Positions 13,468-32,425 of a stretch of DNA of 64,000 bases are shown here, piece after piece. Origin of the DNA: a virus; IMG/VR virus record IMGVR_UViG_3300034069_000021, positions 1 to 64,000 of that record; one strand, written 5' to 3'. The translations under genes and the position numbers were made by a program. Under the pieces are notes generated by a model. The model was not told the DNA's origin. It made no database searches and saw only the letters and a list, made by a program, of their open reading frames with translations. How positions within the stretch are numbered: position 1 is the first letter of the stretch; each line of letters begins with the position of its first letter.

Positions 13468-14595
13468 CTACGCGGCCTCGATGTAGTCCAGCGATGGGCT
13501 GAACCGCCGCACGCCGAACAGTTCCTTCGACCCCGACATCACCATCGCGACCGACCGGTTACTGCTGCCCCTGGCGGCGGTGCCGGTCGCGTCGTTCCAG
13601 GGGTCACCGACGGGGATGCCGTCTCGGTACAGGGTGTGGACGTTGCCCGCCTGGTGGAGCCGCAGCCGCGTGCCGGGGCCGAACTCGGTCAGGCCGGGCT
13701 TGACGATGGTGTTCGCGCCGCCGGTACGCCGGACGATGCCGACCCGGTTGTCCCTGAGGTCGAGACCGACGCCGGTCTGCGCCGCGCCGCTGTTCTGGTA
13801 GCGGCGGAACACCTGGGTGCTGTAGCCGGGGCTGCCCATCTGGCCGACGCGGATGTCCAGCCAGCCGTCATCCGTGGGGTGCTGGGTCGGGAAGCGCATC
13901 CGGCTGGTCTGAGCGTTCAGGCTCAGGAGGCCGTCGGGCACCAGCAGCCGGGCCATGCCGCCGCTCTTGCCGATGACGTAGCCCACCGCCTCCTCGGTCT
14001 CGGCGGTCGGGTGGAAGGCCCCGCACGTCAGCGTGCCGATCACGTCACCGACGGCGTTCACGATCCAGTTGATGGGGTCGCGCAGCAGGCCGGTGATGGC
14101 GTCGGGGATAAGGCCGATCATCTGGCCGAGCTGGCCGATAATCGGAATCTGGCCGACGAGCTTCTGGATGTCCAGGTCACCCTCCAGCCAGTCGGCCAGG
14201 CCGGGGCCGATGATGGGGATGTCGTTGACCATGCCGACCAGGCCATCGGGCGCGGCGGTGCCGCCCCACGCCCCGCAGTAGGCGTCCACCAGGCCCTGCC
14301 CGGTGTTGGCCACCAGCTTGCCCAGGCCGTTGACGCCGCTCTCCACGAACGCCACGGTCTGGCCCACGAAGTTGCCGAGGCCGTCGACCAGCCGCCCGAG
14401 CCCGTCAGAGAACAGGACGCCGAGGTCACCGTTCCACAGCTCGTTGATCCAGCCGGTGAGCCAGCCGTCCACGTTGAAGTCGTCGCGGATGGCCGAGCGC
14501 GTCCAGACCAGCGTCGAGCCCCGGTACACGGCGCTGATGGGTGTCCCGCCCCGGTAGAGCTGGCTGATGGCGGTCCCGCCTCGGTACAGGCTCAC
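13468..14595 (-). CDS. Minor tail protein
   Basis: GTGA overlap start. N-terminal repeats LYRGGTAIS/LYRGGTPIS/VYRGSTLVW. Last gene of the virion block. Confidence 0.7.
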   Translation of the reverse strand: MSLYRGGTAISQLYRGGTPISAVYRGSTLVWTRSAIRDDFNVDGWLTGWINELWNGDLGVLFSDGLGRLVDGLGNFVGQTVAFVESGVNGLGKLVANTGQGLVDAYCGAWGGTAAPDGLVGMVNDIPIIGPGLADWLEGDLDIQKLVGQIPIIGQLGQMIGLIPDAITGLLRDPINWIVNAVGDVIGTLTCGAFHPTAETEEAVGYVIGKSGGMARLLVPDGLLSLNAQTSRMRFPTQHPTDDGWLDIRVGQMGSPGYSTQVFRRYQNSGAAQTGVGLDLRDNRVGIVRRTGGANTIVKPGLTEFGPGTRLRLHQAGNVHTLYRDGIPVGDPWNDATGTAARGSSNRSVAMVMSGSKELFGVRRFSPSLDYIEAA

Positions 14596-14999
14596 CGGAC
14601 GTAGTAGTTGGTGTTCGGGTCGGGCTGAGTGATCTGCTGGAACTCGGTGGCGGTCCCGTGCCACTCCTTGCTCTCGATGTACGCGCCCGAGGCGTCCACG
14701 GCGCTGACCACGCCCGGCCCGGCCTTCTCACCGGTCACCGAGTCGGGCTGGAGCGCGGCTGTGCCCACCGCCAGCGGGGCCACGTTGACCGCCTGCACGC
14801 CGTTCTCGGCGATCTGGGGTGAGTCCACCGCCCCGAGCTTGATCTTCGCCCTGGAGACCGCCTGAGCGCCCAGCTCCACCTCACCGACCTGTCCGGCCTC
14901 AAGGTCGGGGCTCAGGAACTCGATCTCGGCGCGGGTCTCGTCATCGAACTTGGACCCACGCTCGGCGGCGGTGTCCATCAGCACGTTGACAATGGCCAT
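14592..14999 (-). CDS. Minor tail or fibre-associated protein
   Basis: 135-aa ORF in the tail block with high GC3. Confidence 0.6.
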   Translation of the reverse strand: MAIVNVLMDTAAERGSKFDDETRAEIEFLSPDLEAGQVGEVELGAQAVSRAKIKLGAVDSPQIAENGVQAVNVAPLAVGTAALQPDSVTGEKAGPGVVSAVDASGAYIESKEWHGTATEFQQITQPDPNTNYYVR

Positions 15000-15018
15000 G
15001 CTGATCAGGGTAGCTCAG

Positions 15019-15704
15019 CTAGGTCAGACCCTGGCCGAGGAACGCATCGAAGCTGGCCTCCATCTCCTCCTCGGAGAACCCAGGAGGCGGCGGCATGTAC
15101 CCGTCGCCGTCGATCACTCGGGCGGTGATGTCCGGCTTGTAGAGCTTGTCGAAGTACCGCGTGATCTCGGACTTCGCCTCGGCGGCGGTCTTGGCCCCGT
15201 TGGTGCTGGACTCCGCGCCGATCTGCTCCATGACGTCGAGCACCGCGTGCATCGTGGTCACCTGGCCCATGGGGTCAGCGATCCCCTTGTCCGCGTACCG
15301 GGCGCGGACGGCCCGCCAGTTGTGAGCGGTCATCAACGCGAGGTAGATGACCGCCGTGTAGGGCGGGCGGTACCCGCCGTTGCAATCGCCCGGCTCACCC
15401 TCAGCATGGTGTCCGGCGGCATGTCCCCGTCGGGGTCCATCATCTTGGCCAGCAGCTGCTCGAACTCGCCTTCGGCCAGGTGGTTCTGGACGAAGATGTC
15501 GAGCTGGTCAATCCTCATCTGAGGCCCGACCTTGCTGTTCGCCGCCCCGGCCAGCGCCGGGATGGCGTTCGGCAGAGGCTTGCGGGCGTGGAGCGTCATG
15601 CCGATCCCGTCGACCGCCAGCTCCCGGTACGGGTGGCCGGGCGGCGTCGGATGGTCCTCGGCGTCTGATTCGCAGTCGTCGTAGCCAGCAGGTGGATCGT
15701 ACAA
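15019..15704 (-). CDS. Tail assembly chaperone G-T fusion by predicted -1 frameshift
   Basis: The -1 frame of ORF 15019-15336 stays open and shows high GC3 for about 14 codons upstream of its TTG. Frames swap around 15372-15392. The T part, HNWRAVRARYADKGI, resembles chaperone T domains. Confidence 0.45.
15333..15704 (-). CDS. Tail assembly chaperone-like protein (G frame)
   Basis: TTG start. Paralogous to the C-terminal half of 31235-31915 (FVQNHL..KMMDPDG..RAIATA vs FIARHL..RLMDPDD..NAIVTA). Confidence 0.6.
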   Translation of the reverse strand: MYDPPAGYDDCESDAEDHPTPPGHPYRELAVDGIGMTLHARKPLPNAIPALAGAANSKVGPQMRIDQLDIFVQNHLAEGEFEQLLAKMMDPDGDMPPDTMLRVSRAIATAGTARPTRRSSTSR

Positions 15705-15731
15705 GTCAGCTCCCGAAGCCGTTGGTCAGTC

Positions 15732-16934
15732 TCAGAGTACGGGCACCGCGAACAGGTCCAACCGGGTCTCGCCCGAGTCGAAGCTGGACTCCGTGCCCGA
15801 GTCGCCGCCGTCGATGCTGGTGTTCTCCCAGAACTCGCTGATGAACCGCAGCTCCACCGCGCCGACGAACGTGCCGCCCGGCGGGACCAGCGTCCAGCCG
15901 ACGCGCTCGGGCGCGAGCGGGAACGTGACGCTGTTCATCCGCTGCTCCATCACGCCGAACTCGGTGCCGATGGCCAGGGTGCCGCCGCGCCCGATGTCAC
16001 CGCCGATGCCGAACATGCTGGCGTCGACCAGCACCGGCTCCAGGGTTCCCCGAGTGATCTTGACGTCATCCAGCCTCAGCGCCCCGGCGGTGTGATTGCC
16101 GCCGACGGCCACGCGGAGGCCGGTCACGCCCGCCGGAACGACGAACGTCTTGGTCAGGGTGTACCAGGTGCCGTTAGCCGGGAGAGCCGCCAGCGGGAAC
16201 TTCAAGGTCGAGTCGCCGCCGAACGGGGAGCTGGTGTTGGCCTGGTTCCGTACGACGAGGTAGCCCGTGGTGGCGGTGACGTCGTTTCCGTTGTAGGCGC
16301 TGTCGCGCCGGGCTCGGGTGCTGAGCACGACCGTCTCGCCGGGCGTGACGGGGAAGATCCCTTGACGGGTGAACGAGATCGCGTTGCCGCCCGCCAGCAG
16401 GAGGGTCTTGCCGTCATCACCGAACGCGCCGATGGACGCGCCGGTCGTGAGGGGCCACTGGCTTGGATCATCGAAGCTGTCGTTCAGGATGACGGCCTGC
16501 ATGGCCTGGCCCGAGCGCACCACCAGGCCACCGCGCGACCGGGCCTGGAGGCTCACCCGGCAGCCGCCGCGCGTGATCATCCCGTAGACCCACTGGTCGA
16601 CGGGGCTGTTGTTCGTCCACGACCGCTGGAGCTTGTGGATCAGCTGGTTCTTGTTACCGGCGGCGCTCACCGACGGCGCGAGCCCGGCCAGGATCGAGCT
16701 GGCCCCGAACACCGTGGCCAGGCTGGAGAACAGTGAGCCGAACAGGGTGCCGAGGGTTCCGAACACGCCTGCGCCGCTCGCGCCCGAGGTCAGGGTGACG
16801 CCGTACTGAGCCGACCGGCTCGGGGCCTTGATGCCGCCGACGTTGCGCCACTGCATCCACGGCTGAGGCGTGACCACGCCGTCAATTACCTGGAAGTGGT
16901 TCTCGTCAATCGGGGCCTGGAGCGGCGCGGTCAT
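15732..16934 (-). CDS. Minor tail protein with carbohydrate-binding-like domain
   Basis: ATGA overlap start at 16934. Segment ILNDSFDD..GNAISF..LRLDDVKIT resembles CBM/galactose-binding-like modules. Confidence 0.6.
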   Translation of the reverse strand: MTAPLQAPIDENHFQVIDGVVTPQPWMQWRNVGGIKAPSRSAQYGVTLTSGASGAGVFGTLGTLFGSLFSSLATVFGASSILAGLAPSVSAAGNKNQLIHKLQRSWTNNSPVDQWVYGMITRGGCRVSLQARSRGGLVVRSGQAMQAVILNDSFDDPSQWPLTTGASIGAFGDDGKTLLLAGGNAISFTRQGIFPVTPGETVVLSTRARRDSAYNGNDVTATTGYLVVRNQANTSSPFGGDSTLKFPLAALPANGTWYTLTKTFVVPAGVTGLRVAVGGNHTAGALRLDDVKITRGTLEPVLVDASMFGIGGDIGRGGTLAIGTEFGVMEQRMNSVTFPLAPERVGWTLVPPGGTFVGAVELRFISEFWENTSIDGGDSGTESSFDSGETRLDLFAVPVL

Positions 16935-17539
16935 AGCGATCCCATCGGTGAGCCGAGCGCCACCAGGCGCGTCCACCGAGCGTAGGCCTCCCAGCGCGGC
17001 TCCACGTCGGCGTCGGGGCCGGGCGTGACCCAGGTGCCGGGGGTCTGGACGCTGGCGATGTAGCGGAAGTGGAAGCTGTGCATGGGCTGGACCAGGCCAA
17101 TGTCGATGACCGTCTGGCTGCCCTCGCCGTCGAGGAAGAACCGACCGAACTGGATGGCGTTGCGGTCGACGCTGGAGCGGTCGATCTGCATCCGCCCGCC
17201 GAACGTGTCCATGGCCACGCTCGGGTAGTCGGCCTCGGGCTCCTCACCGATCATCCAGCTGACCGCATCGTGGATGACCACGGTGCTGGGAGACTGGACG
17301 ATGACCGAGCGCGGCGCGCGGTTCACCACGATGGCCACGCGCTGGCGATCTCGGCTGTTGTTGAACCAGGTCAGGTCGCCGTCGATCATGGTCACCGGGT
17401 CGGGGCTGAGCTTGATCGGCCCGTCCTTGGTGCTCTCCAGGAACGCCTCGGTGAGCTTGCGCGGACGCCACGTGTCAGCGATGCCGAGGCCCCGGCTGTC
17501 GCTGATCAGGTACTCCGAGGTCTGGATCTTGAGGCTCAC
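16931..17539 (-). CDS. Minor tail or hypothetical virion protein
   Basis: GTGA overlap start at 17539 (internal to ORF 16931-17893). Confidence 0.6.
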   Translation of the reverse strand: MSLKIQTSEYLISDSRGLGIADTWRPRKLTEAFLESTKDGPIKLSPDPVTMIDGDLTWFNNSRDRQRVAIVVNRAPRSVIVQSPSTVVIHDAVSWMIGEEPEADYPSVAMDTFGGRMQIDRSSVDRNAIQFGRFFLDGEGSQTVIDIGLVQPMHSFHFRYIASVQTPGTWVTPGPDADVEPRWEAYARWTRLVALGSPMGSL

Positions 17540-18180
17540 CCGGTCACCAGCCTTCCGGCGCGCGGGAACGTCTGGAGCTGGATCCGCGCCCATCCGGCCT
17601 CCGCTTCGTGGCGGGGCGCGTTCTTGTTCGCGTTGTCGCTGAAAGGCCCAGGCGTCCAGCAGTATTGGCGGTACCAGACCCTGATCGTTGCGCCGGGCTT
17701 GAGTGGTCCCAGCCACTCCTCGGCCACGCCGGTACCCCACCAGTGATGGAACAGGCCGGGGTTCGGCTCGGCCACGGTGTTGCTCTGCATGTCCCCGGCG
17801 CTGCCCACCTGGCCGTTGAACAGGCTGGCCACGGTCGGCTCCACCGGGATGACCGGCTCCAGCGCGTCGGCGGCGGTGATGGCCGACGACCACCGGTCAC
17901 GGAACTGGACGGCGTTCGGGTTCGACGTGACCCAGCGCCGCCAGCGCCGAGTGACCATGACGCGGATGTCCTGCTCGATGGGCGTGTCGTTGGTGTAGTC
18001 CACCAGCCGGTCGATGAGCAGCCGCCCTGGCAGCGTGTCGGTGATGAGCAGCTTCGTGGTGTCGTTGCCGCTCTGGGCCTTGACGTCGACCACGTTGCGC
18101 GGCACCGACCACGGGGCCAGCTGGAGGTTCCCCTGGGAGTCGGTGACCAGGTGCTCCCCGAGGCAGACCTGCCCGTTCAC
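17536..18180 (-). CDS. Minor tail or hypothetical virion protein
   Basis: 214-aa ORF with 4-nt overlaps at both ends. Confidence 0.65.
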   Translation of the reverse strand: MNGQVCLGEHLVTDSQGNLQLAPWSVPRNVVDVKAQSGNDTTKLLITDTLPGRLLIDRLVDYTNDTPIEQDIRVMVTRRWRRWVTSNPNAVQFRDRWSSAITAADALEPVIPVEPTVASLFNGQVGSAGDMQSNTVAEPNPGLFHHWWGTGVAEEWLGPLKPGATIRVWYRQYCWTPGPFSDNANKNAPRHEAEAGWARIQLQTFPRAGRLVTG

Positions 18181-18565: not shown

Positions 18566-18952
18566 TTACGCCGCCAGGCCGGTGATGCCGAGCGTGATGC
18601 CGGTGAGTCGGATGATGTCGCCGGAAATGCCGCCCTTGGACACCGACGCCGCCGCCGTCCAGAGGCAGTTGCCGCCGGTCGGCGCGTCCCAGAGGGAGCC
18701 ATGCGTGATGGTCTCGGTCGCGTTCAGGGTCAGCTCGGGGGTGCCGGTCATGGTGATCAGACCCGACGCCGCCGCCGCCCAGGTGGTCGCCAGGCGGGTT
18801 GCCTGGGCGCTGGCGTTAGCCGCGCCGGTCGCGCCGGGGTCTCCGGTGTGAGCCTTGAAGTACACCGTCGCGGGCGGCGTCCAGGTGACGCCGGAACGGA
18901 AGGTGTGATCCAGCAGCTTGTTCACCAGATACGCGGTAGGTCCGACGGCCAT
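18566..18952 (-). CDS. Hypothetical or minor tail protein
   Basis: 128-aa ORF in the tail block. Confidence 0.65.
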   Translation of the reverse strand: MAVGPTAYLVNKLLDHTFRSGVTWTPPATVYFKAHTGDPGATGAANASAQATRLATTWAAAASGLITMTGTPELTLNATETITHGSLWDAPTGGNCLWTAAASVSKGGISGDIIRLTGITLGITGLAA

Positions 18953-25216: not shown

Positions 25217-28200
25217 CTACGACATCAAGCGGACCAGTCGGTCGCTGACCTGCTCGGCGGTCTCGCGGCCACCACCGATCACAGTAATGGGTGCGGACAC
25301 GTGGTTGGTCCGACCGCCGCCGAACCCGCCGTTCTCCAGGGCCTTCACGAACCGGGTGAACAGGTCGGTCTCCACCGGCTTGAGCACCAGCTCGTCGGCG
25401 TCCACGTCCTTGAGCATGAGGCCCTTGCCGGTGGCCATGCCGCCCTGGTCGAACGGGATGCCGGGGATGAGGGTCGACGCGCCACCGAACAGCCCGCCGA
25501 ACAGGCCAGCGAACGCGCCGAACAGCCCGCCGACCAACGTCGTCAGGAACCCGCCCGCCGGGTCGAACAGGCCCGCCAGCAGCCCGCCGCCGAACACGTT
25601 GCTCACCAGGTCGGGCGCGGCTGATTGCAGGCCCTCGGCCACCACGTTGATCAGCTGCTCGGACATGGCCAGGGCGAAGTCCGTACCGATCTCGGCGGCG
25701 ATCTCGACGCCCGCCTGGCCCGCCGAGCTGATCAGGCTGGAGACGATGCCGCCAGCGCCGGGGGCCTGAGTGTTCACCGCCGCGCCCGCCGCGCTCGCGC
25801 CCGCCTGGATGGCCGCGTTCGCCACCGCCTTGGTGATCGGGACGATGACCTTCTCGATGATGTACTTGATGATGGCCTGGATGACGATCTTGAGGATGCG
25901 GATGCGCTCCTCGGCGGCGGTCTCGGTGCTGGACTGCGTGCGCTCGATCAGGCCCGAGGTGTCGTTGAGCAGTCGGCCCTGAGCGTCGAACGCCTTGAAC
26001 GCGTCACCTCGGAATCCACGGAACTCGTCGGTCATCTCGTTGAGGGTGTCGCGGCTCTCGATCTCCACGCCGATCACCTGGAGCAGGGTGCGGATGATCA
26101 GGTTGACGATGGCCCCGAGGATCGGCACCTCGGAGACCCCGAAGAACTCAGCGCCCACCGCGTCGTTGCCGATCACGCCGCCGCCCGTGGCGTACCGGCG
26201 CATCCCCTTGGACGCAATGTTGTCGATCTGAGAGAACCCGCCCATGCGGGCCACCTGAGCCGTGTTCAGCACGTACTCGCCCGGCATGAGCATGGCGGGC
26301 ACCGAGTCCTTGCCAGCCTGGCCACCGCTGACCGGCCCGCCACCCGCGAAGCCCTGAGCTACCACGCCAGCGAGCCCGTTGCCGACGTTCCCCGCGCCGC
26401 TGGTGTCAATCGGTAGCTGGCTCACCGCGCCGCTCACAGCGTCGGCAATGGGCGGCGCGGCGGCGTTGCCGAGCGCCGAGCCGATGGCCGTCGACACCGA
26501 GTCCTTGAGGGATTCGAGCGCGTTCTGCATACCGGCCTTGATGACCGGCTCCAGGGCCTGCTCCTCCAGCCGCTGCTGGACCTGAGTGATGACGTCCACC
26601 AGCTGCTCGCGCATGGCCCCGAGCTGGGCCTGGAGGCTGGAGAACGTGCGGTCCATCAGCCCGGCGGTGTCCGAGAACAGCCGACCCGAGGCGTCGTAGC
26701 CCTCCTCGTTCTTCTGCACCTGGTCCTGGTCGAACGCGCCGCCCGCCCGAGAGAAGTCCTGGACGTTGAACCCCATGGCCTCGGCCAGCGCCAGCGGGTT
26801 GCGCTCGTCAATCAGCTGGTCCAGGCCCGCCGCCGGGGCGCGCTTCCGCCAGCTCTCCTGCCCGAGCCCGGCGATGGCCCCGGTGATGTCGGTGGCCACG
26901 GTCCCCGCCGCGCCGCCCGCAGCGCCGAGGCCAGCGCCGAGAATCTGGTCCATGCCGGGCGGCATTCCGCCGTTCGGACCAGCCACGATGTAGACCGGGA
27001 CCGGCCCGCCACCCGAGTAGCCGAGCGCGTTCGCGCCGCCGCCAGCGCCGCCGGTCATGCTGTCCATGAAGCCGGGCGGGAGCGCGCCCACCGGCAGCGA
27101 CATGATGTTCGGCATACCCTCCGCGCCCTGGGCGTTGCCGCCGTAGGTCGCGCCCTGGCCGGTGCCGCCGCCCGACTCGAAGGCCACGCCGTTGGGCAGC
27201 GTCGAGCGCATGTGAGTGTCGCTCCAGCCGATCTGGAGCGCGCCGGGGACAGCGCCCTCGACCGCGCCGAGCTTGGTCAGAACGTCGCGGGCCGAACCGG
27301 TGGCGAACAGGCGCTCAGGCCCGGCCTGCCCCTTGGTGATCAGCTCCACCAGGTCACTCACCGCGCCCGAGCAGTCGGACAGGCCCTTGGCCAGGTCCGA
27401 TCCGCCCCACACGTACTTGCCACCCGAGGACCGCTGAGCCAGGTCCACCACGGCCCCGGCCATACCGGTGCCGGGCGCGGCGGTCGACGGGGCCAGCGCC
27501 CCGCCCGTGAGGCTGTTCGGATCCAGCCCCTGCTGCTTCATCAGCTGCTCGCGGTAGCGCGTCAGCGACTTGACCAGCGGCGTGTTCGTCTCGTCCAGCA
27601 CGCCGCCGTAGCCGCCCTGGCCGAGCACCTGGTCTACCAGGCCCGCGATCTGGTCGTCCTCCAGACCGCCCTTCTTCTTGTTCCGCGCCGAGGTCAGCGC
27701 GGTGATGATCGGGTCGTTCGCGTTCAGCCCGAGCCCGGCCACGTCGGCCAGGTCGCCGGACTTGGCGAACGCCGCCAGCGCCGCCGCCTGAGCCGCGTAG
27801 TTGACCGGGAGGCCCGCGCCGGTCACGCCCGGCAGCTGGCCGACGCCCATGCCGGGCGCGACGTAGGTCGACGGGTCAGCGCCGATCCACTTCTCGGGGT
27901 CGGCCCCGAGCGCCTGGAGCGCCGCCGCCGCCATCTCGTAGCCGGGGTCGCCGCGCTTCTTGAGCGGCGTGCCGAACGGCCCCATGGTGGTGCCGCTGGT
28001 GTCGGTCGCCGCCTGGGCGGCGGTGGCCGTGTTCGCCGCCGTCGCGGCCAGCGGGTTGGACGCCGCGCCGCCCTTGCCGCCGAGGAGGTCGCGGATCTGG
28101 ATGAGCACGCTCAGCTCGGTCTCGGGGCCGATGACCGGCGGCGGGCCGGGCAGCGCGCCGGTACCCAGGTGCGGCTCCACGCCGCCGTCGGCGTAGTACC

Positions 28201-31200
28201 GGCGGCTCAGGCCCGAGCGGAACCGACTGTTGAGCGCGTACACGCCCGCCGCCCCGCCGATGCCGCGCACGGCCTCGGGGATCAGCACGCCCTCACCGGG
28301 GGCCAGCACCGCGTTCACGATGTCTCGGCCCGGCGCGTAGCCGGGGATCACCATGCCGTCAGCGCCGCCTGGGCGCGGCGGAAGGGCGAAGGGGTCTCGG
28401 GGTGCCCCGCTGGGCGTCTGGAAGCGTGGCGGCGCGCCAGGAGGCGGCGCGGGGACCGCTGGGAGCGGGAGCGTGCCGGTGTTGCGGAACAGGTCGCCGT
28501 AGACCTGGCCGAGCACGCCGAGCTTGTTCAGCGTGTCCTGGTACTGGGCGGCGTTGACGCTGACGCTGATGGTCTTGTCGTTGTTGTTCTTGACCTCGAT
28601 GCCGATGGCGCGGAGCTGGTCGAGCACGGCCTGACTCAGCGGCGCGGCGACCTGGATCTGCTTCTGGTTGTTGGTCGAGACCTCGACGCCGATGTTCCGC
28701 AGGATGTCGAACACCGCCTGCCCGCCGGGCATGTCGATGTTGATCGGGACGTCGCGCGGGATGGCGGCGAACGCGTTCTGCACGTTGACCGCCGCCTGCT
28801 CCAGCCCGACGCCCATGGACGTGCTGAGCGTCTGGAGCAGCGGCGCGGCGATCTGCGCGTTGTTGGCCATGCCCAGCGTGTTGTCGCGGATGCTGGCCAG
28901 CTGAGCCGCCGCGATCTGCCCCGCCGGGCCGAGGGCCTGGAGGCGTCCCACCAGCGCGTCGAACTGAGGCTGAGCGCCGGTCACAATGGTGGACATCTGC
29001 TCGGTGGTCTGGCCGACCTGGCTCAGTGCGTCAGCGATGCCCTTGAGGGTGCTGTCGTCGTACGCGCCCGCCAGGCGGTCGGGAATGGCGTTGATCTGCT
29101 CACCGACGGCGGCGATGGTGCTGGCGTCGATGGCTCCACCGCTGGCGTTCAGCGCGTCGTTCGCGGTCTTGATGGCCTGGCTGTTCTGGGCCATGGCGTT
29201 GCGCGAGCGGTCCAGGGTCTCGGCCAGCTGCGCCTGGGCGTTCGCCGCCGCCTCGGCAGCCGCCTTGTTATCCGACAGGAGGTAGTTGATCCCAGCCAGC
29301 GCGGTGCCGACGCCGCCGCCGATCACGGCCCCGAGGGCGGTGCCCAGGCCGGGCACGACCGAGCCGATGGCCGCGCCGGTCAGCGCGCCGCCGCCCACCG
29401 TGCTGAGCGCGCCCATGAGCTGGCCAGCGATGTCGTCGGTGTCGGAGGTCAGGCTGGTGATCGAGCCCGCCGCCAGGAGGCCGAGACCGGCGGTGCCACG
29501 GCCCGACCCGAGCGCCCCACCGATGGCCCCGATGCCGCGCCCGGCCCGCTGAGCCTTGGCGGGCAGCGCGTCCAGCACGCCGCTCATCCGGCTCAGGCCC
29601 GAGGTCAGCGTGGTGATCATCGTGATGGACTTCCACGCCAGGAACCCCACCAGCACGGCCTGGGTCAGGCCGGGGATGGCGGTCAGCGCCTCGGTGATGC
29701 CACGGAGCACCGGCAGCAGCACGGACGTCCAGGTCTTGCTGGCCTCGTAGACGTCACCCAGCAGCTCGGCGAAGTTCTGGAGGATCGGCAGCCACTGAGC
29801 GGCCTGCTCGCGCCCCTCGCGGAAGAACTTGGCGATGCTGGCCTGGCCCGACGCCGAGCCGGTCAGGTCGCGCAGCTTGCCGGTGGCCGACTCCAGCCAG
29901 GTGAGGAACCCGCCCTGGTCAGCGCCCGCCGCCTGGGTCAGGTTCGTGACCACCTTGATGAGGCTCAGGCCCGACTCCCCGAGCTGACGGAGGCCGGTGA
30001 TGCCCTGGTTGATCCACTTATCCAGCCGACCGTCGCCGTCCACCTTGGTGATCCAGGCGTCGAACCGGCTCGCGACACCGGCCAGCCCGTCACCGAGGCG
30101 CGGCAGCACGTCGGACCCGGCGGCGGTGAGCGTGCCGAGCGCGTGAACCAGCGGCTCGATGGCGGCGTTCGCGCGGGTCTGGCCCTCGGCGGTGTTGCCG
30201 AAGATCCGATCCATGAGACCGAGGTTGCTGTCCCGGCCCAGCGCGCCGGTCAGCGTCTTGAGGGTGCCGTTCCAGGCGGTGGCCACCTTGCCCATGCCGC
30301 CCTCGACGCGCGGGAGCGCCTTGTCGGCCAGGCCCTGGAGCGACTGGTCGAACCCGTCGAGCATCTTCCCGGCGATGTTCTTGCGGAACTCCAGCAGCGG
30401 GCCTCGGTTGAGCTTGGCCATGGTCTCTGCCACCGCGACGGTCGCCGGGTGGAGATCCTGCATGGCCTCCTTGGCCTTCTCCAGATCCTTGGGGTCGCCG
30501 GTCTTCATCGCCTCGGACAGCGCCGAGGTGGCCTCGCCCAGGCCCTTGAACCCGAGCACGGCGGTACCGACCGACGCCGCCGCGCCCGCGAAGATGCCGG
30601 GCAGCGCGAGACCAGCCTGGGCCAGCTGCTGGACGCCGCCGACCACCTGGATGAGCGCCGCCGACGCGGCAGGGAGAGACCCGATGCCCAGCGCGATGGC
30701 GTTGACGCCTACCGGGCTGGTGATGAACCGACCGCCGCCGCCCTGGCCGGTGAACAGGTCACCGGTGGCCGTGCGCCGGGGCGGGGGTGCGCCGCTGGAC
30801 GCGCCGCCGGTCGCGGGAGCCGCGCCGACGGGCACAGCCGCGTTCGCCGCCCGAGCGGCGGTGTTCTTGATGATGGCGGCGGTCTGCCGCTCGTAGGCGC
30901 GGGTGACGGCGTTCAGCTGGCGCGCGGTCACCGCGCCCGCCGCCTGAGTCTTGGCGGCGGTCTTGGTCTGCTCGTTGCCGATGTGCTCGACGGCCTCGGC
31001 CACCGCCTTGGCACCTGCGGTCTGGGCGGTGCTGGCCTTCTCGCTGGCGCGGGCGGTCTGGTCGTACTCGCGCTGGACCTTGTTCAGCTCGGCCTGGACC
31101 TTGGCCAGCGCCGGGCCGATGGCGCGCCGGACGGCCTCACCGAGTCGGGAGGCCAGGTCGTCGGCGTCGAGTTCGACGCCAAGACTGATCTTCCCTACAT

Positions 31201-31207
31201 CGGTCAC
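25217..31207 (-). CDS. Tape measure protein with NlpC/P60-like domain
   Basis: 1996 aa, Ala/Gly-rich. NlpC/P60-like motif GGKYVWGGSDLAKGLSDCSG (Cys codon near 27371-27373). Two ..D(I/S)VxAxLxPGExVL.. motifs. Confidence 0.9.
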   Translation of the reverse strand: MTDVGKISLGVELDADDLASRLGEAVRRAIGPALAKVQAELNKVQREYDQTARASEKASTAQTAGAKAVAEAVEHIGNEQTKTAAKTQAAGAVTARQLNAVTRAYERQTAAIIKNTAARAANAAVPVGAAPATGGASSGAPPPRRTATGDLFTGQGGGGRFITSPVGVNAIALGIGSLPAASAALIQVVGGVQQLAQAGLALPGIFAGAAASVGTAVLGFKGLGEATSALSEAMKTGDPKDLEKAKEAMQDLHPATVAVAETMAKLNRGPLLEFRKNIAGKMLDGFDQSLQGLADKALPRVEGGMGKVATAWNGTLKTLTGALGRDSNLGLMDRIFGNTAEGQTRANAAIEPLVHALGTLTAAGSDVLPRLGDGLAGVASRFDAWITKVDGDGRLDKWINQGITGLRQLGESGLSLIKVVTNLTQAAGADQGGFLTWLESATGKLRDLTGSASGQASIAKFFREGREQAAQWLPILQNFAELLGDVYEASKTWTSVLLPVLRGITEALTAIPGLTQAVLVGFLAWKSITMITTLTSGLSRMSGVLDALPAKAQRAGRGIGAIGGALGSGRGTAGLGLLAAGSITSLTSDTDDIAGQLMGALSTVGGGALTGAAIGSVVPGLGTALGAVIGGGVGTALAGINYLLSDNKAAAEAAANAQAQLAETLDRSRNAMAQNSQAIKTANDALNASGGAIDASTIAAVGEQINAIPDRLAGAYDDSTLKGIADALSQVGQTTEQMSTIVTGAQPQFDALVGRLQALGPAGQIAAAQLASIRDNTLGMANNAQIAAPLLQTLSTSMGVGLEQAAVNVQNAFAAIPRDVPINIDMPGGQAVFDILRNIGVEVSTNNQKQIQVAAPLSQAVLDQLRAIGIEVKNNNDKTISVSVNAAQYQDTLNKLGVLGQVYGDLFRNTGTLPLPAVPAPPPGAPPRFQTPSGAPRDPFALPPRPGGADGMVIPGYAPGRDIVNAVLAPGEGVLIPEAVRGIGGAAGVYALNSRFRSGLSRRYYADGGVEPHLGTGALPGPPPVIGPETELSVLIQIRDLLGGKGGAASNPLAATAANTATAAQAATDTSGTTMGPFGTPLKKRGDPGYEMAAAALQALGADPEKWIGADPSTYVAPGMGVGQLPGVTGAGLPVNYAAQAAALAAFAKSGDLADVAGLGLNANDPIITALTSARNKKKGGLEDDQIAGLVDQVLGQGGYGGVLDETNTPLVKSLTRYREQLMKQQGLDPNSLTGGALAPSTAAPGTGMAGAVVDLAQRSSGGKYVWGGSDLAKGLSDCSGAVSDLVELITKGQAGPERLFATGSARDVLTKLGAVEGAVPGALQIGWSDTHMRSTLPNGVAFESGGGTGQGATYGGNAQGAEGMPNIMSLPVGALPPGFMDSMTGGAGGGANALGYSGGGPVPVYIVAGPNGGMPPGMDQILGAGLGAAGGAAGTVATDITGAIAGLGQESWRKRAPAAGLDQLIDERNPLALAEAMGFNVQDFSRAGGAFDQDQVQKNEEGYDASGRLFSDTAGLMDRTFSSLQAQLGAMREQLVDVITQVQQRLEEQALEPVIKAGMQNALESLKDSVSTAIGSALGNAAAPPIADAVSGAVSQLPIDTSGAGNVGNGLAGVVAQGFAGGGPVSGGQAGKDSVPAMLMPGEYVLNTAQVARMGGFSQIDNIASKGMRRYATGGGVIGNDAVGAEFFGVSEVPILGAIVNLIIRTLLQVIGVEIESRDTLNEMTDEFRGFRGDAFKAFDAQGRLLNDTSGLIERTQSSTETAAEERIRILKIVIQAIIKYIIEKVIVPITKAVANAAIQAGASAAGAAVNTQAPGAGGIVSSLISSAGQAGVEIAAEIGTDFALAMSEQLINVVAEGLQSAAPDLVSNVFGGGLLAGLFDPAGGFLTTLVGGLFGAFAGLFGGLFGGASTLIPGIPFDQGGMATGKGLMLKDVDADELVLKPVETDLFTRFVKALENGGFGGGRTNHVSAPITVIGGGRETAEQVSDRLVRLMS

Positions 31208-31234: not shown

Positions 31235-31915
31235 CTACTCGGACTTGTCGGCCTCGACACTGGCCGTCACGATGGCGTTGAACAGCTCGCCCACGGTCTC
31301 GACGTCATAGGCAGAGTCGTCGGGGTCCATCAGGCGGGAGAACACGCGACCGTAGCTCTCGGGGCTCAGGTGGCGCGCGATGAACAGGCCGGTCAGGTCG
31401 TTCTTGACGCCGAGGCTGACGTACTTGGAGCTGGCCAGCGAGAACGCCGCCAGGGCCTGCTTCTGCGGCAGCCGGACGCCGAGCAGGTCACCCTCGAACT
31501 CCAGAAAGTCATACGGCCAGGTCTCGTCCGTGTCCTTGGTGACGTCCCACTTCTCGACCAGGGCCACGGCGGTGCCGGTGTCCTCGGGAGCGGCCTCGGC
31601 CTCAGCCGCCGCCAGCTCAGCGCGCAGCTTGGCCAGCCGGGCCTGCTTGGCGTCGGCGTCCTCGGGGTCGGGGGCCACTCGGGCCACCGCGCCCTCGGAG
31701 CGGGGCTCACCCTCGCGGAACGGGCGGGCCGGGTACTCGTCGTCGTCGTCGTCGCCGTTGACCTGGGCCACCTGGTCCTCCACGGGAACCGGCACGACCT
31801 CGCCGGGCTCGTTGTCGCCGTAGGGGTCGGGGTCACGCTCGGTCAGATCAGCCGGGGGAGCCAGCTGGTCCGAGTCGTCGGTGATCATCTTGCCGCCAGC
31901 GCCAAACGTAGCCAT
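31235..31915 (-). CDS. Tail assembly chaperone-like protein with acidic N-terminal extension
   Basis: ATG 31915 with an AGGAGA SD; lies directly upstream of the tape measure. C-terminal half is chaperone-like. There is no room for a T frame. Confidence 0.6.
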   Translation of the reverse strand: MATFGAGGKMITDDSDQLAPPADLTERDPDPYGDNEPGEVVPVPVEDQVAQVNGDDDDDEYPARPFREGEPRSEGAVARVAPDPEDADAKQARLAKLRAELAAAEAEAAPEDTGTAVALVEKWDVTKDTDETWPYDFLEFEGDLLGVRLPQKQALAAFSLASSKYVSLGVKNDLTGLFIARHLSPESYGRVFSRLMDPDDSAYDVETVGELFNAIVTASVEADKSE

Positions 31916-32011
31916 GTGTCTCCTGAGTCCCGAAGCCGAGTTCACGGTGGGCCGGGTCCGGCAGAACCCGGTGACCACCTCACGACCGAGGGTAGCACCG
32001 AGTTATCCGAC

Positions 32012-32425
32012 TCAGTGGACGCGCGGGTCGCTCGCGACGACTCGGTGAGCGGCATTGCGCAGGAACGGGCGGGCGCGGGTGCCGGGGTGCCAGACGCTCT
32101 TGCGGAAGATCACGCGCCCGTGCCAGACGAACCTGAGCGCGTCGGCGCTGCGGGCGGCGATGCGGTGAGGTCGGCTGCCTTCGTGAACCGCCGCCGCGTA
32201 ATCGGCGGTGGCCTCGACGCCGCCGCTCACGTGGAAGGGCCGGTACACCTGGGGCATCTCACCGATGGTTCGCCCGAGGTTGCCGGTGCGAACGGGGACG
32301 TCGGCGCGGGCCTGGTTGGCGATGCGCCGGGTCAGCGAGCGGTGGAACGCCCTGAGGTCACGGCCCGACTCGCGCTCCAGCGCCGCCTCGTCAATCTCGA
32401 CGCGGGCATGGATGCGCGCGGTCAT
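32012..32425 (-). CDS. HK97 gp10-like head-tail joining protein
   Basis: Motifs VPVRTGNLGRTI .. ADYAAAVHEGS .. RPFLRNA. Confidence 0.6.
   Translation of the reverse strand: MTARIHARVEIDEAALERESGRDLRAFHRSLTRRIANQARADVPVRTGNLGRTIGEMPQVYRPFHVSGGVEATADYAAAVHEGSRPHRIAARSADALRFVWHGRVIFRKSVWHPGTRARPFLRNAAHRVVASDPRVH

What the first reader, a model, noticed from the sequence alone, without database searches (positions are those of the whole stretch)
15019..15704. Canonical -1 frameshift tail-chaperone (G/GT) pair displaced about 10 kb downstream of the tape measure, plus a frameshift-less paralogue at the usual position
The gene at the normal chaperone position (31235-31915, just upstream of the TMP) has a chaperone-like C-terminal half and a roughly 110-aa highly acidic N-terminal extension. 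Only 27 nt separate it from the TMP, so there is no room for a T frame. A shorter paralogue (15333-15704) lies among the distal tail and fibre genes. The two align by eye: PY..L..G, F(I/V)..HL, (R/K)(L/M)MDPD(D/G), (N/R)AI(V/A)TA. Its 3' end is overlapped in the -1 frame by ORF 15019-15336. That -1 frame stays open with high GC3 for about 14 codons upstream of its nominal TTG, while the zero frame loses GC3. This is the classic G/GT signature. The frame swap falls in 15372-15392, near G-rich runs CGGGC and GGCGGG; I see no textbook XXXYYYZ heptamer. A duplicated chaperone system with the frameshifting copy next to fibre genes is unusual.
Basis: partly seen in the sequence, partly recalled or inferred. 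Interest (0 to 1): 0.65.

Follow-up and report, generated by a model that had tools for sequence, protein, structure and literature searches.

The report
Hidden frameshifted tail chaperone, Cluster B phages
This mycobacteriophage, from a group of over 500 genomes reported to lack the usual tail-chaperone frameshift, very probably does make a fused chaperone by a -1 ribosomal slip, but in a gene pair about 10 kb from the expected place and at an unusually minimal slip site.

Summary

- **Origin.** The window is a Cluster B mycobacteriophage, 98.8% identical to Julie1.
- **Paralogues.** ORF 15333-15704(-) and the gene just upstream of the tape measure (31235-31915) both match Pfam Phage_TAC_16.
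- **Second ORF.** ORF 15019-15336(-) is DUF7240 and lies in the -1 frame.
- **Fusion homologues.** In Dori-like phages and 32 other protein clusters the two domains form one in-frame protein. Its most conserved motif, GTARP|YxAV, spans the junction.
- **Slip site.** All 15 split lineages found by homology carry CG[C] CCU at that point. Two of these carry a textbook C CCU UUU.
- **Hairpin.** A 12-bp hairpin with covarying pairs follows after a 5-nt spacer. It is weaker in in-frame lineages.
- **Start codons.** Several lineages have no start codon for the second ORF.
- **Inferred event.** tRNA-Pro slips from CCU (15362-15360) to CCC, giving a 228-aa long-form chaperone.
- **Annotation status.** The pair was annotated as two separate proteins in every GenBank row inspected. 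Two genome announcements state that B1 phages have no such frameshift.

This is a new variant of a known kind. No experiment has tested it, and the protein or proteins it chaperones are unknown.

The parts
15333..15704 (-). Zero-frame ORF (G'): Phage_TAC_16 domain, 123 aa, TTG start, stop TGA at 15335-15333
   Evidence: ORF. (PF23781, E=1.3e-43, 147.9 bits against a cutoff of 27). (phrog_915; weaker hits to tail assembly chaperone phrogs 1118 and 21090).
15710..15714 (-). Shine-Dalgarno-like GGGAG, 5 nt upstream of the G' TTG start
   Evidence: upstream context. By contrast, no purine-rich element precedes the nominal TTG/ATG of the second ORF.
15360..15363 (-). Inferred -1 slip site C CCU. 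Pro codon CCU (15362-15360) is preceded by the wobble C of Arg CGC (15363). The zero-frame A-site codon is ACA; the -1 A-site codon is UAC.
   Evidence: CG[C] CCU in all 15 homology-found split lineages; in-frame lineages use CGC/CGG/CGT/CGA and CCG/CCC, never CCT. ACA is 1.2% of Thr codons, CCT 4.2% of Pro, TAC 95% of Tyr.
15325..15355 (-). Stimulatory hairpin. 5' arm 15355-15343, loop 15342-15338, 3' arm 15337-15325, 4-5 nt after CCU. The 3' arm covers the G' stop and the nominal TTG/ATG of the second ORF.
   Evidence: -17.9 kcal/mol, z=-4.4, 0 of 200 shuffles; across 39 distinct junctions 88% of cells pair against 24-60% in slid registers, 8 of 13 pairs change on both sides, 0 of 500 shuffles reach this; the hairpin is weaker in in-frame lineages.
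15019..15360 (-). -1 frame coding segment (T-like, DUF7240). It is read from UAC at 15360 to the stop at 15021-15019. The nominal ORF starts only at TTG 15336.
   Evidence: PF23888, E=1.7e-45. (phrog_941 spans G'+T); the -1 frame peptide YxAVIxLxL upstream of the nominal start is conserved, while the zero-frame tail is not.
15019..15704 (-). Predicted 228-aa fusion product (G'T): residues 1-115 from the zero frame, then 113 residues from the -1 frame
   Evidence: sequence; the junction motif GTARPYxAV is conserved in 33 in-frame homologues; the AF2 model of the Dori homologue has pLDDT 88 and an ordered junction.
31235..31915 (-). Short-form paralogue at the canonical position. It has an acidic N-terminal extension plus a Phage_TAC_16 domain, has no T frame, and ends 27 nt before the tape measure gene.
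   Evidence: homologues in 521 phage records, some annotated 'tail assembly chaperone'.
25217..31207 (-). Tape measure protein gene (1996 aa)
   Evidence: ORF. (Julie1 gp23, annotated tail length tape measure protein).
15732..18180 (-). Three DUF7172 paralogues immediately upstream of G' (17536-18180, 16931-17542, 15732-16976), conserved neighbours of the pair
   Evidence: E=7.6e-77, 1.5e-77 and a weak 1.5e-3; same neighbourhood in distant relatives.
13468..14999 (-). Conserved downstream neighbours: a 135-aa fibre-like protein (14592-14999) and a minor tail protein (13468-14595)
   Evidence: phrog_892, tail fiber protein, E=3.8e-45. (Julie1 gp35, gp36); the equivalent gene hits Phage_tail_C in relatives.

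Best explanation
**Proposed mechanism.**
- Ribosomes start at TTG 15704 and read the Phage_TAC_16 domain in the zero frame as far as ...G-T-A-R-P.
- With tRNA-Pro on the rare codon CCU (15362-15360), a fraction of ribosomes slips back one base onto CCC (15363-15361).
- Two features are inferred to favour the slip: a 12-13 bp hairpin beginning 4-5 nt downstream, and in this phage a very rare zero-frame A-site codon, ACA.
- Reading then continues in the -1 frame from UAC (15360) through the DUF7240 domain. The product is a 228-aa fusion, the long form.
- Ribosomes that do not slip terminate 9 codons later, giving a 123-aa short product.

**Proposed function.** The gene immediately upstream of the tape measure (31235-31915) is a frameshift-less paralogue. 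It ends at the position equivalent to the junction and is taken to be the short form. Together they would act as the short and long tail assembly chaperones of this phage group.

**Shown here:** homology, frame relations, slip-site conservation, hairpin covariation and the existence of in-frame fusions.

**Inferred:** that slipping occurs, its efficiency, and the client. I put about 55% on tape measure and tail tube, and about 30% on the neighbouring DUF7172 and fibre proteins.
For: 1. **Domains.** G' is PF23781 and T is PF23888. phrog_941 spans both.
2. **Natural in-frame fusions.**
   - Dori gp35 is a single ORF. It recurs in Mask, Sejanus and Mao1.
   - A further search found 32 clusters of 189-252 aa carrying both Pfam domains.
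   - In their alignment G113, R116, P117, A120 and V121 of the motif GTARPYxAV are invariant.
   - Reading the window's zero frame to Pro and then the -1 frame reproduces this motif exactly.
3. **Frame relation.** In 14 of the first 15 lineages examined T is in the -1 frame, down to about 35% identity.
4. **Slip site.**
   - All 15 homology-found split lineages have CG[C] CCU.
   - NTR1 and SPI1 have the canonical C CCU UUU at the same codon.
   - Ten in-frame lineages use CGC, CGG, CGT or CGA, and CCG or CCC.
5. **-1 frame is the selected frame after the slip.**
   - The -1 peptide between the slip and the nominal start is conserved, whereas the zero-frame stop lies anywhere from 2 to 10 or more codons after the slip.
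   - Six of 39 distinct junctions have no ATG, GTG or TTG in the first 14 codons of the -1 frame.
   - No Shine-Dalgarno element precedes the nominal T start.
6. **Hairpin.**
   - In the window it has z=-4.4.
   - Across 39 junctions 88% of cells pair, 8 of 13 pairs covary and 0 of 500 shuffles reach this.
   - PRF lineages pair 11.1 of 12 positions at -20.2 kcal/mol. In-frame lineages pair 8.1 of 12 at -13.2 (Mann-Whitney p about 1e-5, not corrected for phylogeny).
7. **Interleaving.** PRF and in-frame states are interleaved on a neighbour-joining tree.
8. **Fold.** The fusion model resembles full-length actinophage 'tail assembly chaperone' products at TM 0.46-0.53.
9. **Dori and SPI1** also carry a short TAC_16 gene directly upstream of the tape measure gene.
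Against: - No experimental evidence of any kind was found: no mass spectrometry, reporter assay or ribosome profiling.
- C CCU is a minimal, non-canonical slip site. The A-site tRNA cannot re-pair (ACA to UAC), so efficiency could be low.
- The zero-frame A-site codon is rare in only some lineages: ACA 14, ACC 13, ACG 8, ACT 3, ATA 1. A hungry codon therefore cannot be the general stimulator.
- This window does have TTG and ATG overlapping the G' stop, so termination-reinitiation could also make a free T protein.
- The hairpin arms encode conserved residues, and in-frame lineages keep part of it (Dori pairs 11 of 12). Some of the pairing is therefore a by-product of coding.
- 26 of the 39 junctions were found by searching for the slip motif itself, so they do not count as independent evidence of motif conservation.
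- The tree is an unbootstrapped neighbour-joining tree.
- The fold matches are modest, and nothing matched in the PDB.
- The position among distal tail genes does not fit the classical tape measure chaperone.
Confidence: 0.8

Rival explanations
1. The two ORFs are independent, translationally coupled genes. Ribosomes terminate at TGA (15335-15333) and reinitiate at the overlapping TTG or ATG. The hairpin masks that start so that T is made only when G' is translated. No fusion protein is produced.
For: - The window has a TTGATG overlap with the stop codon.
- Stop/start overlaps of this kind automatically place the downstream gene in the -1 frame.
- The 3' arm of the hairpin covers the nominal start.
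- Every GenBank record inspected annotates two genes.
Against: - Six of 39 junctions, including Pipefish, Evaa and Megabear, have no ATG, GTG or TTG in the first 14 codons of the -1 frame, and 15 of 39 have no ATG.
- In B5-like phages the G' stop lies 2 codons after the slip site, about 20 nt before the putative start.
- The 8-9 codons upstream of the nominal start are conserved as -1 frame amino acids. They match invariant residues of the in-frame fusions.
- The Arg wobble C needed for re-pairing was found in every split lineage but varies in in-frame lineages.
Confidence: 0.08
2. The frameshift is real, but the long form is not a tape measure or tail tube chaperone. It is instead a dedicated assembly factor for the neighbouring distal-tail module: the three DUF7172 paralogues, the small Phage_tail_C fibre-like protein, and DUF7257 or the minor tail protein.
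For: - The order DUF7172 x3, then the G-T gene, then a ~138-aa gene (Pfam Phage_tail_C hit in two relatives) and a ~240-aa gene (DUF7257 hit in several) before lysis genes where the contig reaches that far recurs in the window and in most distant prophage and metagenome relatives examined.
- In one relative the downstream gene is a 713-aa collagen and Phage_tail_C fibre.
- The two TAC_16 paralogues share only 27% identity, which is compatible with different clients.
Against: - In Skermania phage SPI1 the pair is separated from the DUF7172 genes by about 6 kb of non-structural genes, yet it is retained together with the short paralogue next to the tape measure gene.
- The long and short genes occur in nearly the same number and genus mix of phage records, 521 against 523-524, although overlap was not checked record by record and the whole tail module may simply be co-inherited.
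- The fusion's best fold matches are bona fide GT-type chaperones.
Confidence: 0.3
3. The split arrangement is a decayed gene. A 1-nt deletion inactivated an ancestral fused gene, and the downstream part is a remnant or is dispensable.
For: The split form differs from the in-frame form by a single base, CGC CCC TAC against CGC CCT AC.
Against: - The split arrangement with an intact, conserved DUF7240 frame occurs in every non-Dori record listed among the top 60 of 524 matches. It also occurs in lineages down to about 35% identity.
- Codon-position entropy in the -1 frame is 0.77, 0.51 and 0.92 for positions 1, 2 and 3, as expected for coding sequence.
- The hairpin covaries.
Confidence: 0.02

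Closest known systems
Lambda gpG/gpGT and the conserved tail-assembly frameshift of long-tailed dsDNA phages (Xu, Hendrix & Duda 2004; cited from the reference list of PMC3029335 and from my own knowledge)
   Same: - An upstream chaperone ORF is extended in the -1 frame into a second domain that has no translation signals of its own.
- Two products share an N-terminal domain.
- The G' domain belongs to a Pfam tail assembly chaperone family.
- The fusion's fold weakly resembles annotated GT products.
   Different: - The pair is not between the major tail and tape measure genes. It lies about 9.5 kb beyond the tape measure gene, among distal tail genes.
- A separate frameshift-less paralogue occupies the canonical slot.
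- The slip site is C CCU rather than X XXY YYZ.
- Many relatives encode the long form in-frame.
Short-gene plus long-gene chaperone systems without frameshifting, as described for some T4-like phages (PRFect paper, PMC10274946, section 'SEAPHAGES')
   Same: Dori-like phages have exactly this layout. A short TAC_16 gene sits upstream of the tape measure gene, and a long in-frame TAC_16+DUF7240 gene sits elsewhere. The window also has the separate short gene.
   Different: The window and most Cluster B relatives still need a -1 shift to make the long form, so they combine both strategies. Homology to the T4-like proteins was not tested.
Annotated actinobacteriophage tail assembly chaperone frameshifts (SEA-PHAGES joined genes)
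   Same: Same host range and GC content. The fusion sizes are similar, at about 200-270 aa.
   Different: - Cluster B genomes are annotated without a join. Two announcements state that no frameshift is present (PMC12352053, PMC10793310).
- None of PRFect's eight backward motifs is a simple run of three (PMC10274946), so that tool's motif set would probably miss this site.
Bacterial -1 PRF cassettes with a 3' hairpin, such as dnaX and IS3-family transposases (from my own knowledge)
   Same: Slip site, short spacer and a stable hairpin. Two relatives have a true heptamer, C CCU UUU.
   Different: Only one tRNA can re-pair, so this would be single-tRNA P-site slippage. No upstream Shine-Dalgarno-like stimulator was established.

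Membership tests
G/GT tail assembly chaperone frameshift pair (Xu et al. 2004) | Two overlapping ORFs, the second in another frame and lacking its own reliable initiation signal | tested here: met
   - The frame is -1 in all split lineages.
- There is no Shine-Dalgarno element before the nominal start.
- Six of 39 junctions have no start codon.
G/GT tail assembly chaperone frameshift pair (Xu et al. 2004) | Located between the major tail protein gene and the tape measure gene | tested here: not met
   The pair lies at 15019-15704, while the tape measure gene is at 25217-31207. A different gene (31235-31915) occupies the canonical slot.
G/GT tail assembly chaperone frameshift pair (Xu et al. 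2004) | Canonical slippery heptamer X XXY YYZ in the overlap | tested here: not met
   There is none in the G' ORF, only C CCU. The homologous codon in NTR1 and SPI1 is C CCU UUU.
G/GT tail assembly chaperone frameshift pair (Xu et al. 2004) | A fusion protein is actually made at a set ratio, is needed for tail assembly and is absent from virions | not testable with these tools
   This needs mass spectrometry, western blots and genetics. No proteomic data for Cluster B phages were found.
G/GT tail assembly chaperone frameshift pair (Xu et al. 2004) | Sequence or fold relationship to known chaperones | tested here: inconclusive
   - The G' domain is a clear member of PF23781.
- The whole fusion matches annotated GT products only at Foldseek E=2e-4 to 2e-2 and TM about 0.5.
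- There is no PDB match.
Pfam PF23781 Phage_TAC_16 | Score above the gathering threshold | tested here: met
   147.9 bits for 15336-15704 and 135.7 bits for 31238-31978, against a cutoff of 27.
Pfam PF23888 DUF7240 | Score above the gathering threshold | tested here: met
   154 bits against a cutoff of 27, covering profile positions 1-101 of 104.
-1 programmed ribosomal frameshift cassette | Stable 3' structure 5-9 nt after the slip site, supported by covariation | tested here: met
   - The spacer is 4-5 nt and the hairpin folds at -17.9 kcal/mol with z=-4.4.
- Eight of 13 pairs change on both sides, and 0 of 500 shuffles reach the observed values on four of the five measures.
- The hairpin is weaker where no shift is needed.
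Short-gene plus long-gene chaperone system without PRF | Separate short gene plus a long in-frame fusion gene | tested here: not met
   - The window has the short gene, but its long form needs a -1 shift.
- The feature is met in Dori. In-frame long genes also occur in 32 other clusters, where the short gene was not checked.

The most novel reading that the evidence does not exclude
The frameshift may not be there to set a G:GT ratio, because a separate gene already supplies the short form and many relatives make only the in-frame long form. On this reading a single-base indel repeatedly toggles the long-form gene between constitutive and slip-dependent expression, with at least four switches on the tree. 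The C CCU plus hairpin cassette would then act as a translational attenuator that keeps the long form scarce. The long form itself may chaperone the DUF7172 and fibre module rather than the tape measure. That would make it the first G/GT-type chaperone with a non-tape-measure client.
Probability: 0.3. Interest if true: 0.8.

Novelty: new variant of a known kind. Interest (0 to 1): 0.68.

Why it matters
**Annotation.** Cluster B is among the most heavily sampled mycobacteriophage groups, with about 520 matching records in the collection searched. It is annotated, and explicitly reported, as lacking the otherwise near-universal tail-chaperone frameshift. If this reading is right, the frameshift is present but displaced and disguised. 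Two 'hypothetical proteins' in each of about 500 genomes should then be joined and named.

**Recoding biology.** The family offers a compact natural experiment. The same junction occurs as a minimal C CCU site with a hairpin, as a textbook C CCU UUU heptamer, and as an in-frame fusion, in related phages whose hosts can be manipulated genetically. The requirement for slip site and structure, and the need for a short product, can therefore be tested directly.

**Prediction tools.** It also shows a class of site that motif-based frameshift predictors probably miss.

Tried and rejected
**Searches that gave little or nothing**
I used the DNA motif instead. That biases those loci towards the slip motif, so I count only the homology-found lineages as evidence of motif conservation.
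- Foldseek against the PDB found nothing significant.
- Rfam found nothing in 15000-15750.
- Pfam at E<=1 gives only DUF7240 for the T part, so there is no direct sequence link to known T domains.

**Literature**
- Seven full-text searches found no description of a Cluster B frameshift.
- Three guessed PMC ids for Hatfull reviews were not held. I therefore cannot exclude that a subscription review mentions the idea.

**Ideas considered and rejected**
- Sequencing error as the cause of the split or of the Dori fusion. The split arrangement recurs in every non-Dori record inspected, out of 524 that match, and the fusion recurs in four Dori-like isolates and 32 other clusters.
- Transcriptional slippage. 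The run is only CCC.
- Two-tRNA slippage with Arg CGC moving to CCG. The re-pairing would be poor.
- A canonical heptamer elsewhere in the overlap. There is none.
- Using SPI1 to separate the two client hypotheses. It retains the short gene, the DUF7172 genes and the pair, so it is uninformative.
Full report
**Where the window comes from**

The region 14500-17000 is 98.8% identical to Mycobacterium phage Julie1. It is 94-96% identical to 39HC, 40BC, Hosp and KayaCho, which are Cluster B phages of the Bclasvirinae. The structural genes run on the minus strand. The local order is as follows:
- the tape measure gene, 25217-31207;
- minor tail genes;
- three DUF7172 paralogues, 17536-18180, 16931-17542 and 15732-16976;
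- the pair under study;
- a 135-aa fibre-like gene and a minor tail gene;
- regulators and the lysis genes.

**Checking the observation**

Both ORFs exist as described, and the second is in the -1 frame with a TTGA overlap.

The claimed paralogy is solid.
- The distal ORF and the gene just upstream of the tape measure gene both match Pfam PF23781 Phage_TAC_16, at E=1.3e-43 and 8.4e-40.
- They align directly at E=2e-7.
- The upstream gene's likely start is ATG 31915, preceded by AGGAGA.
- Its 109-aa N-terminal extension is acidic, with 28 D+E against 10 K+R.
- It stops 27 nt before the tape measure start.
- Its C-terminus (...FNAIVTASVEADKSE*) ends at the position equivalent to ...SRAIATAGTARP in the distal copy. 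It is therefore a natural 'G-only' form.

The second distal ORF is Pfam DUF7240 at E=1.7e-45. One PHROG profile of 233 positions, phrog_941, covers both distal ORFs end to end. This was the first hint that fused versions exist.

**Fused versions exist and define the junction**

- In Mycobacterium phage Dori the two parts form one 232-aa ORF, gp35. The same ORF is present in Mask, Sejanus and Mao1.
- A protein search with Dori gp35 found 32 further clusters of 189-252 aa carrying both Pfam domains. They come from Mycolicibacterium and Mycobacterium genomes and from metagenomes.
- In their alignment the stretch A-T-W-G-T-A-R-P-Y-x-A-V is among the most conserved in the protein. G113, R116, P117, A120 and V121 are invariant.
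- In the window the zero frame reads ...A-T-A-G-T-A-R-P-T-R-R-S-S-T-S-R-stop.
- The -1 frame reads ...P-P-Y-T-A-V-I-Y-L-A-L-M-T-A-H-N-W.
- Only the path 'zero frame through Pro, then -1 frame from Tyr' recreates the conserved motif.
- At the DNA level Dori has CGC CCC TAC where the window has CGC CCT AC, a one-base difference.

**The split arrangement is conserved, and so is a slip site**

- Among the first 15 lineages found by protein homology, T was in the -1 frame in 14; only Dori is in-frame. These are subclusters B1-B6, Imvubu, M. abscessus prophages, Gordonia phages AnClar and Evaa, Megabear, Nocardia NTR1 and Dori. Skermania SPI1 and a Frankiaceae MAG contig, added later, are also split.
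- A -1 relation alone is weak evidence, because ATGA and TGATG overlaps produce it automatically.
- All 15 split lineages carry CG[C] CCU at the junction codon.
- In NTR1 and SPI1, where Phe replaces Tyr, the site is the textbook heptamer C CCU UUU.
- The C before CCU is the wobble base of an Arg codon. It is exactly what tRNA-Pro needs in order to re-pair with CCC.
- In ten in-frame lineages that base varies (CGC 5, CGG 2, CGT 2, CGA 1). There the Pro codon is CCG or CCC and never CCT.
- The window's G' ORF holds no X XXY YYZ heptamer at all.

**The -1 frame is the selected frame downstream of the slip**

I compared 39 distinct junction sequences. They comprise 13 found by homology and 26 further distinct junctions from 42 IMG/VR loci. 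Those loci were found with the motif and then confirmed with a T-domain HMM.
- The -1 peptide Y-x-A-V-I-x-L-x-(L/V) upstream of the nominal start is conserved.
- The zero-frame tail is not conserved. Its stop lies 2, 4, 7, 9, 10 or more codons after the slip.
- Column entropy by -1 frame codon position is 0.77, 0.51 and 0.92, the pattern expected for coding sequence.
- Six junctions, including Pipefish, Evaa and Megabear, have no ATG, GTG or TTG in the first 14 codons of the -1 frame. Fifteen have no ATG.
- GenBank annotators accordingly placed the second gene's start anywhere from 40 nt upstream to 210 nt downstream of the start of homology.
- In the window G' has a GGGAG element 5 nt before its TTG, whereas the nominal T start has none.

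**A covarying hairpin follows the slip site**

- In the window the hairpin spans 15355-15325 and folds at -17.9 kcal/mol. Its z-score is -4.4, and 0 of 200 shuffles fold as well.
- A hairpin in the same register is predicted in all 13 split lineages that have the minimal site.
- On the 39-sequence ungapped alignment, a 13-pair helix starting 4-5 nt after CCU has 88% of cells paired. Slid registers give 24-60%.
- Eight pairs change on both sides, in 54 cells. No shuffle out of 500 reaches the observed values on four of the five measures.
- Many of the double changes fall at -1 frame third positions, for example Ala GCG/GCC paired with GCC/GCG.
- As a control, ten in-frame lineages pair only 8.1 of 12 positions in the homologous register, with a mean of -13.2 kcal/mol. 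The split lineages give 11.1 of 12 and -20.2 kcal/mol.
- The Mann-Whitney p is about 1e-5 for both measures, not corrected for phylogeny.
- Part of the pairing is a by-product of the conserved peptide; Dori keeps 11 of 12 pairs. Even so, the structure is clearly better maintained where a shift is needed.
- No Rfam family matches the region.

**Mechanism proposed**

- tRNA-Pro decodes the rare CCU. CCT is 4.2% of Pro codons in 15 genes of this phage.
- It then slips to CCC while the hairpin resists unwinding.
- In this phage the zero-frame A-site codon ACA is the rarest Thr codon, at 1.2%. The -1 codon UAC is 95% of Tyr codons.
- That fits single-tRNA P-site slippage with a slow A site.
- Other lineages have ACC or ACG at that position, so the hungry codon is at most an accessory.
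- The predicted fusion is 228 aa.

**What the protein is**

- An AlphaFold2 model of the Dori fusion, built on the 33-sequence alignment, has pLDDT 88 and pTM 0.78.
- The junction residues score about 96. The junction therefore lies in an ordered part of a mostly helical protein, not in a linker.
- A C-terminal amphipathic helix carrying the conserved P-x-G-F...E-x-x-F-D-A-F motif sits on a disordered tether.
- The PDB has no similar fold.
- In BFVD the best full-length matches are actinophage proteins named 'tail assembly chaperone' of 190-270 aa, from Lilbeanie, SilentRX, Muddy and Phendrix. They score E=3e-3 to 2e-2 and TM 0.46-0.53. This is modest support that the fusion is a GT-like long form.
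- The short paralogue next to the tape measure gene is found in 521 phage records. The T part is found in 523-524 records with a nearly identical genus composition.
- Dori and SPI1 also have the short gene directly upstream of their tape measure genes.
- The family rule is therefore: a short gene at the canonical site, plus a long form elsewhere that is either in-frame or made by a -1 shift.
- The PRFect paper notes that some T4-like phages likewise carry a short gene and a long fused gene instead of frameshifting (PMC10274946).
- On a rough neighbour-joining tree the split and in-frame states are interleaved, implying at least four switches.

**What remains open**

- The client is not established. 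The pair is embedded in a conserved block: DUF7172 x3, the pair, a small gene that hits Phage_tail_C in some relatives, and a larger gene that hits DUF7257 in some. This could mean it serves distal tail or fibre proteins.
- SPI1 separates the pair from that block by about 6 kb but keeps all the components, so it does not decide the matter.
- It is also unclear why a frameshift is kept when a separate short gene exists and many relatives make only the long form.

**Novelty**

- Every GenBank row inspected lists the pair as two separate proteins with no join. All but one call both 'hypothetical protein' (or gpNN), including records from 2024-2025; the exception, Prann, names the first 'tail assembly chaperone'.
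- Two genome announcements state that B1 phages have no tail assembly chaperone frameshift (PMC12352053, PMC10793310).
- Seven full-text searches found no description of it.
- I could not read the subscription reviews on mycobacteriophages, so a passing mention there cannot be excluded.
- The concept of a G/GT frameshift is classical. The displaced position, the separate short paralogue, the minimal slip site and the repeated interconversion with in-frame fusions make this a new variant of a known kind.

**Verdict**

- Observation: confirmed.
- Interpretation: supported, with a corrected slip site (15363-15360) and junction (...GTARP/YTAVI...).
- Confidence that a -1 shift makes the fusion: about 0.8.
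- Confidence in the tape measure or tube client: about 0.55.
- Interest: 0.68.

Noticed in passing
window 32012-32425 (-): The RefSeq record of Julie1 names the equivalent gene (gp21) 'tail assembly chaperone'. The protein has no Pfam TAC hit, and its best PHROG match is phrog_5, 'tail completion or Neck1 protein' (E=2.5e-18). The RefSeq name is probably wrong.
   Followed up: partly
window 18566-18952 (-): This 128-aa protein matches Pfam PF23140, 'Podophage GP4 fiber I protein gp80' (E=3e-30). Its Julie1 equivalent (gp28) is annotated 'head protein'.
   Followed up: no
window 15732-18180 (-); also L111, L112, L114, L116, L118: Three tandem DUF7172 paralogues of about 214, 203 and 414 aa (the third a weak match) recur upstream of the chaperone pair in most relatives examined (in SPI1 they lie ~6 kb away). 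The third copy ranges in size from 166 to 759 aa. Their function is unknown; they may be distal tail or fibre components.
   Followed up: partly
L016 (JAFAZI010000006.1, 33.8-kb contig of a 'Frankiaceae bacterium' MAG): This contig carries a Cluster-B-like chaperone pair, 60% identical in the T part, with the same slip site and hairpin. It is probably a phage or prophage contig binned into the MAG.
   Followed up: no
L118 (Skermania phage SPI1) 18110-23183: About 6 kb of non-structural genes, including a PAPS-reductase-domain protein and a reverse-strand ribonucleotide reductase beta subunit, sit between the DUF7172 genes and the chaperone pair. They split a block that is contiguous in most other relatives examined.
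   Followed up: no
window 31235-31915 (-) and homologues: Only the C-terminal ~115 aa (the TAC_16 domain) of the canonical-position paralogue is conserved across phages. The acidic N-terminal extension differs in length and sequence, and the whole protein is 131 aa in SPI1 and 197 aa in Dori against 226 aa here. The role of the extension is unknown.
   Followed up: no
window 15372-15380 (-) and alignment A2 columns 1-2: A G-rich stretch (GGCGGG here, TGGGG in many relatives) lies about 11 nt upstream of the slip codon. That is the distance at which a Shine-Dalgarno-like stimulator acts in dnaX. It also encodes the conserved (W/A)-G, so its significance is untested.
   Followed up: no
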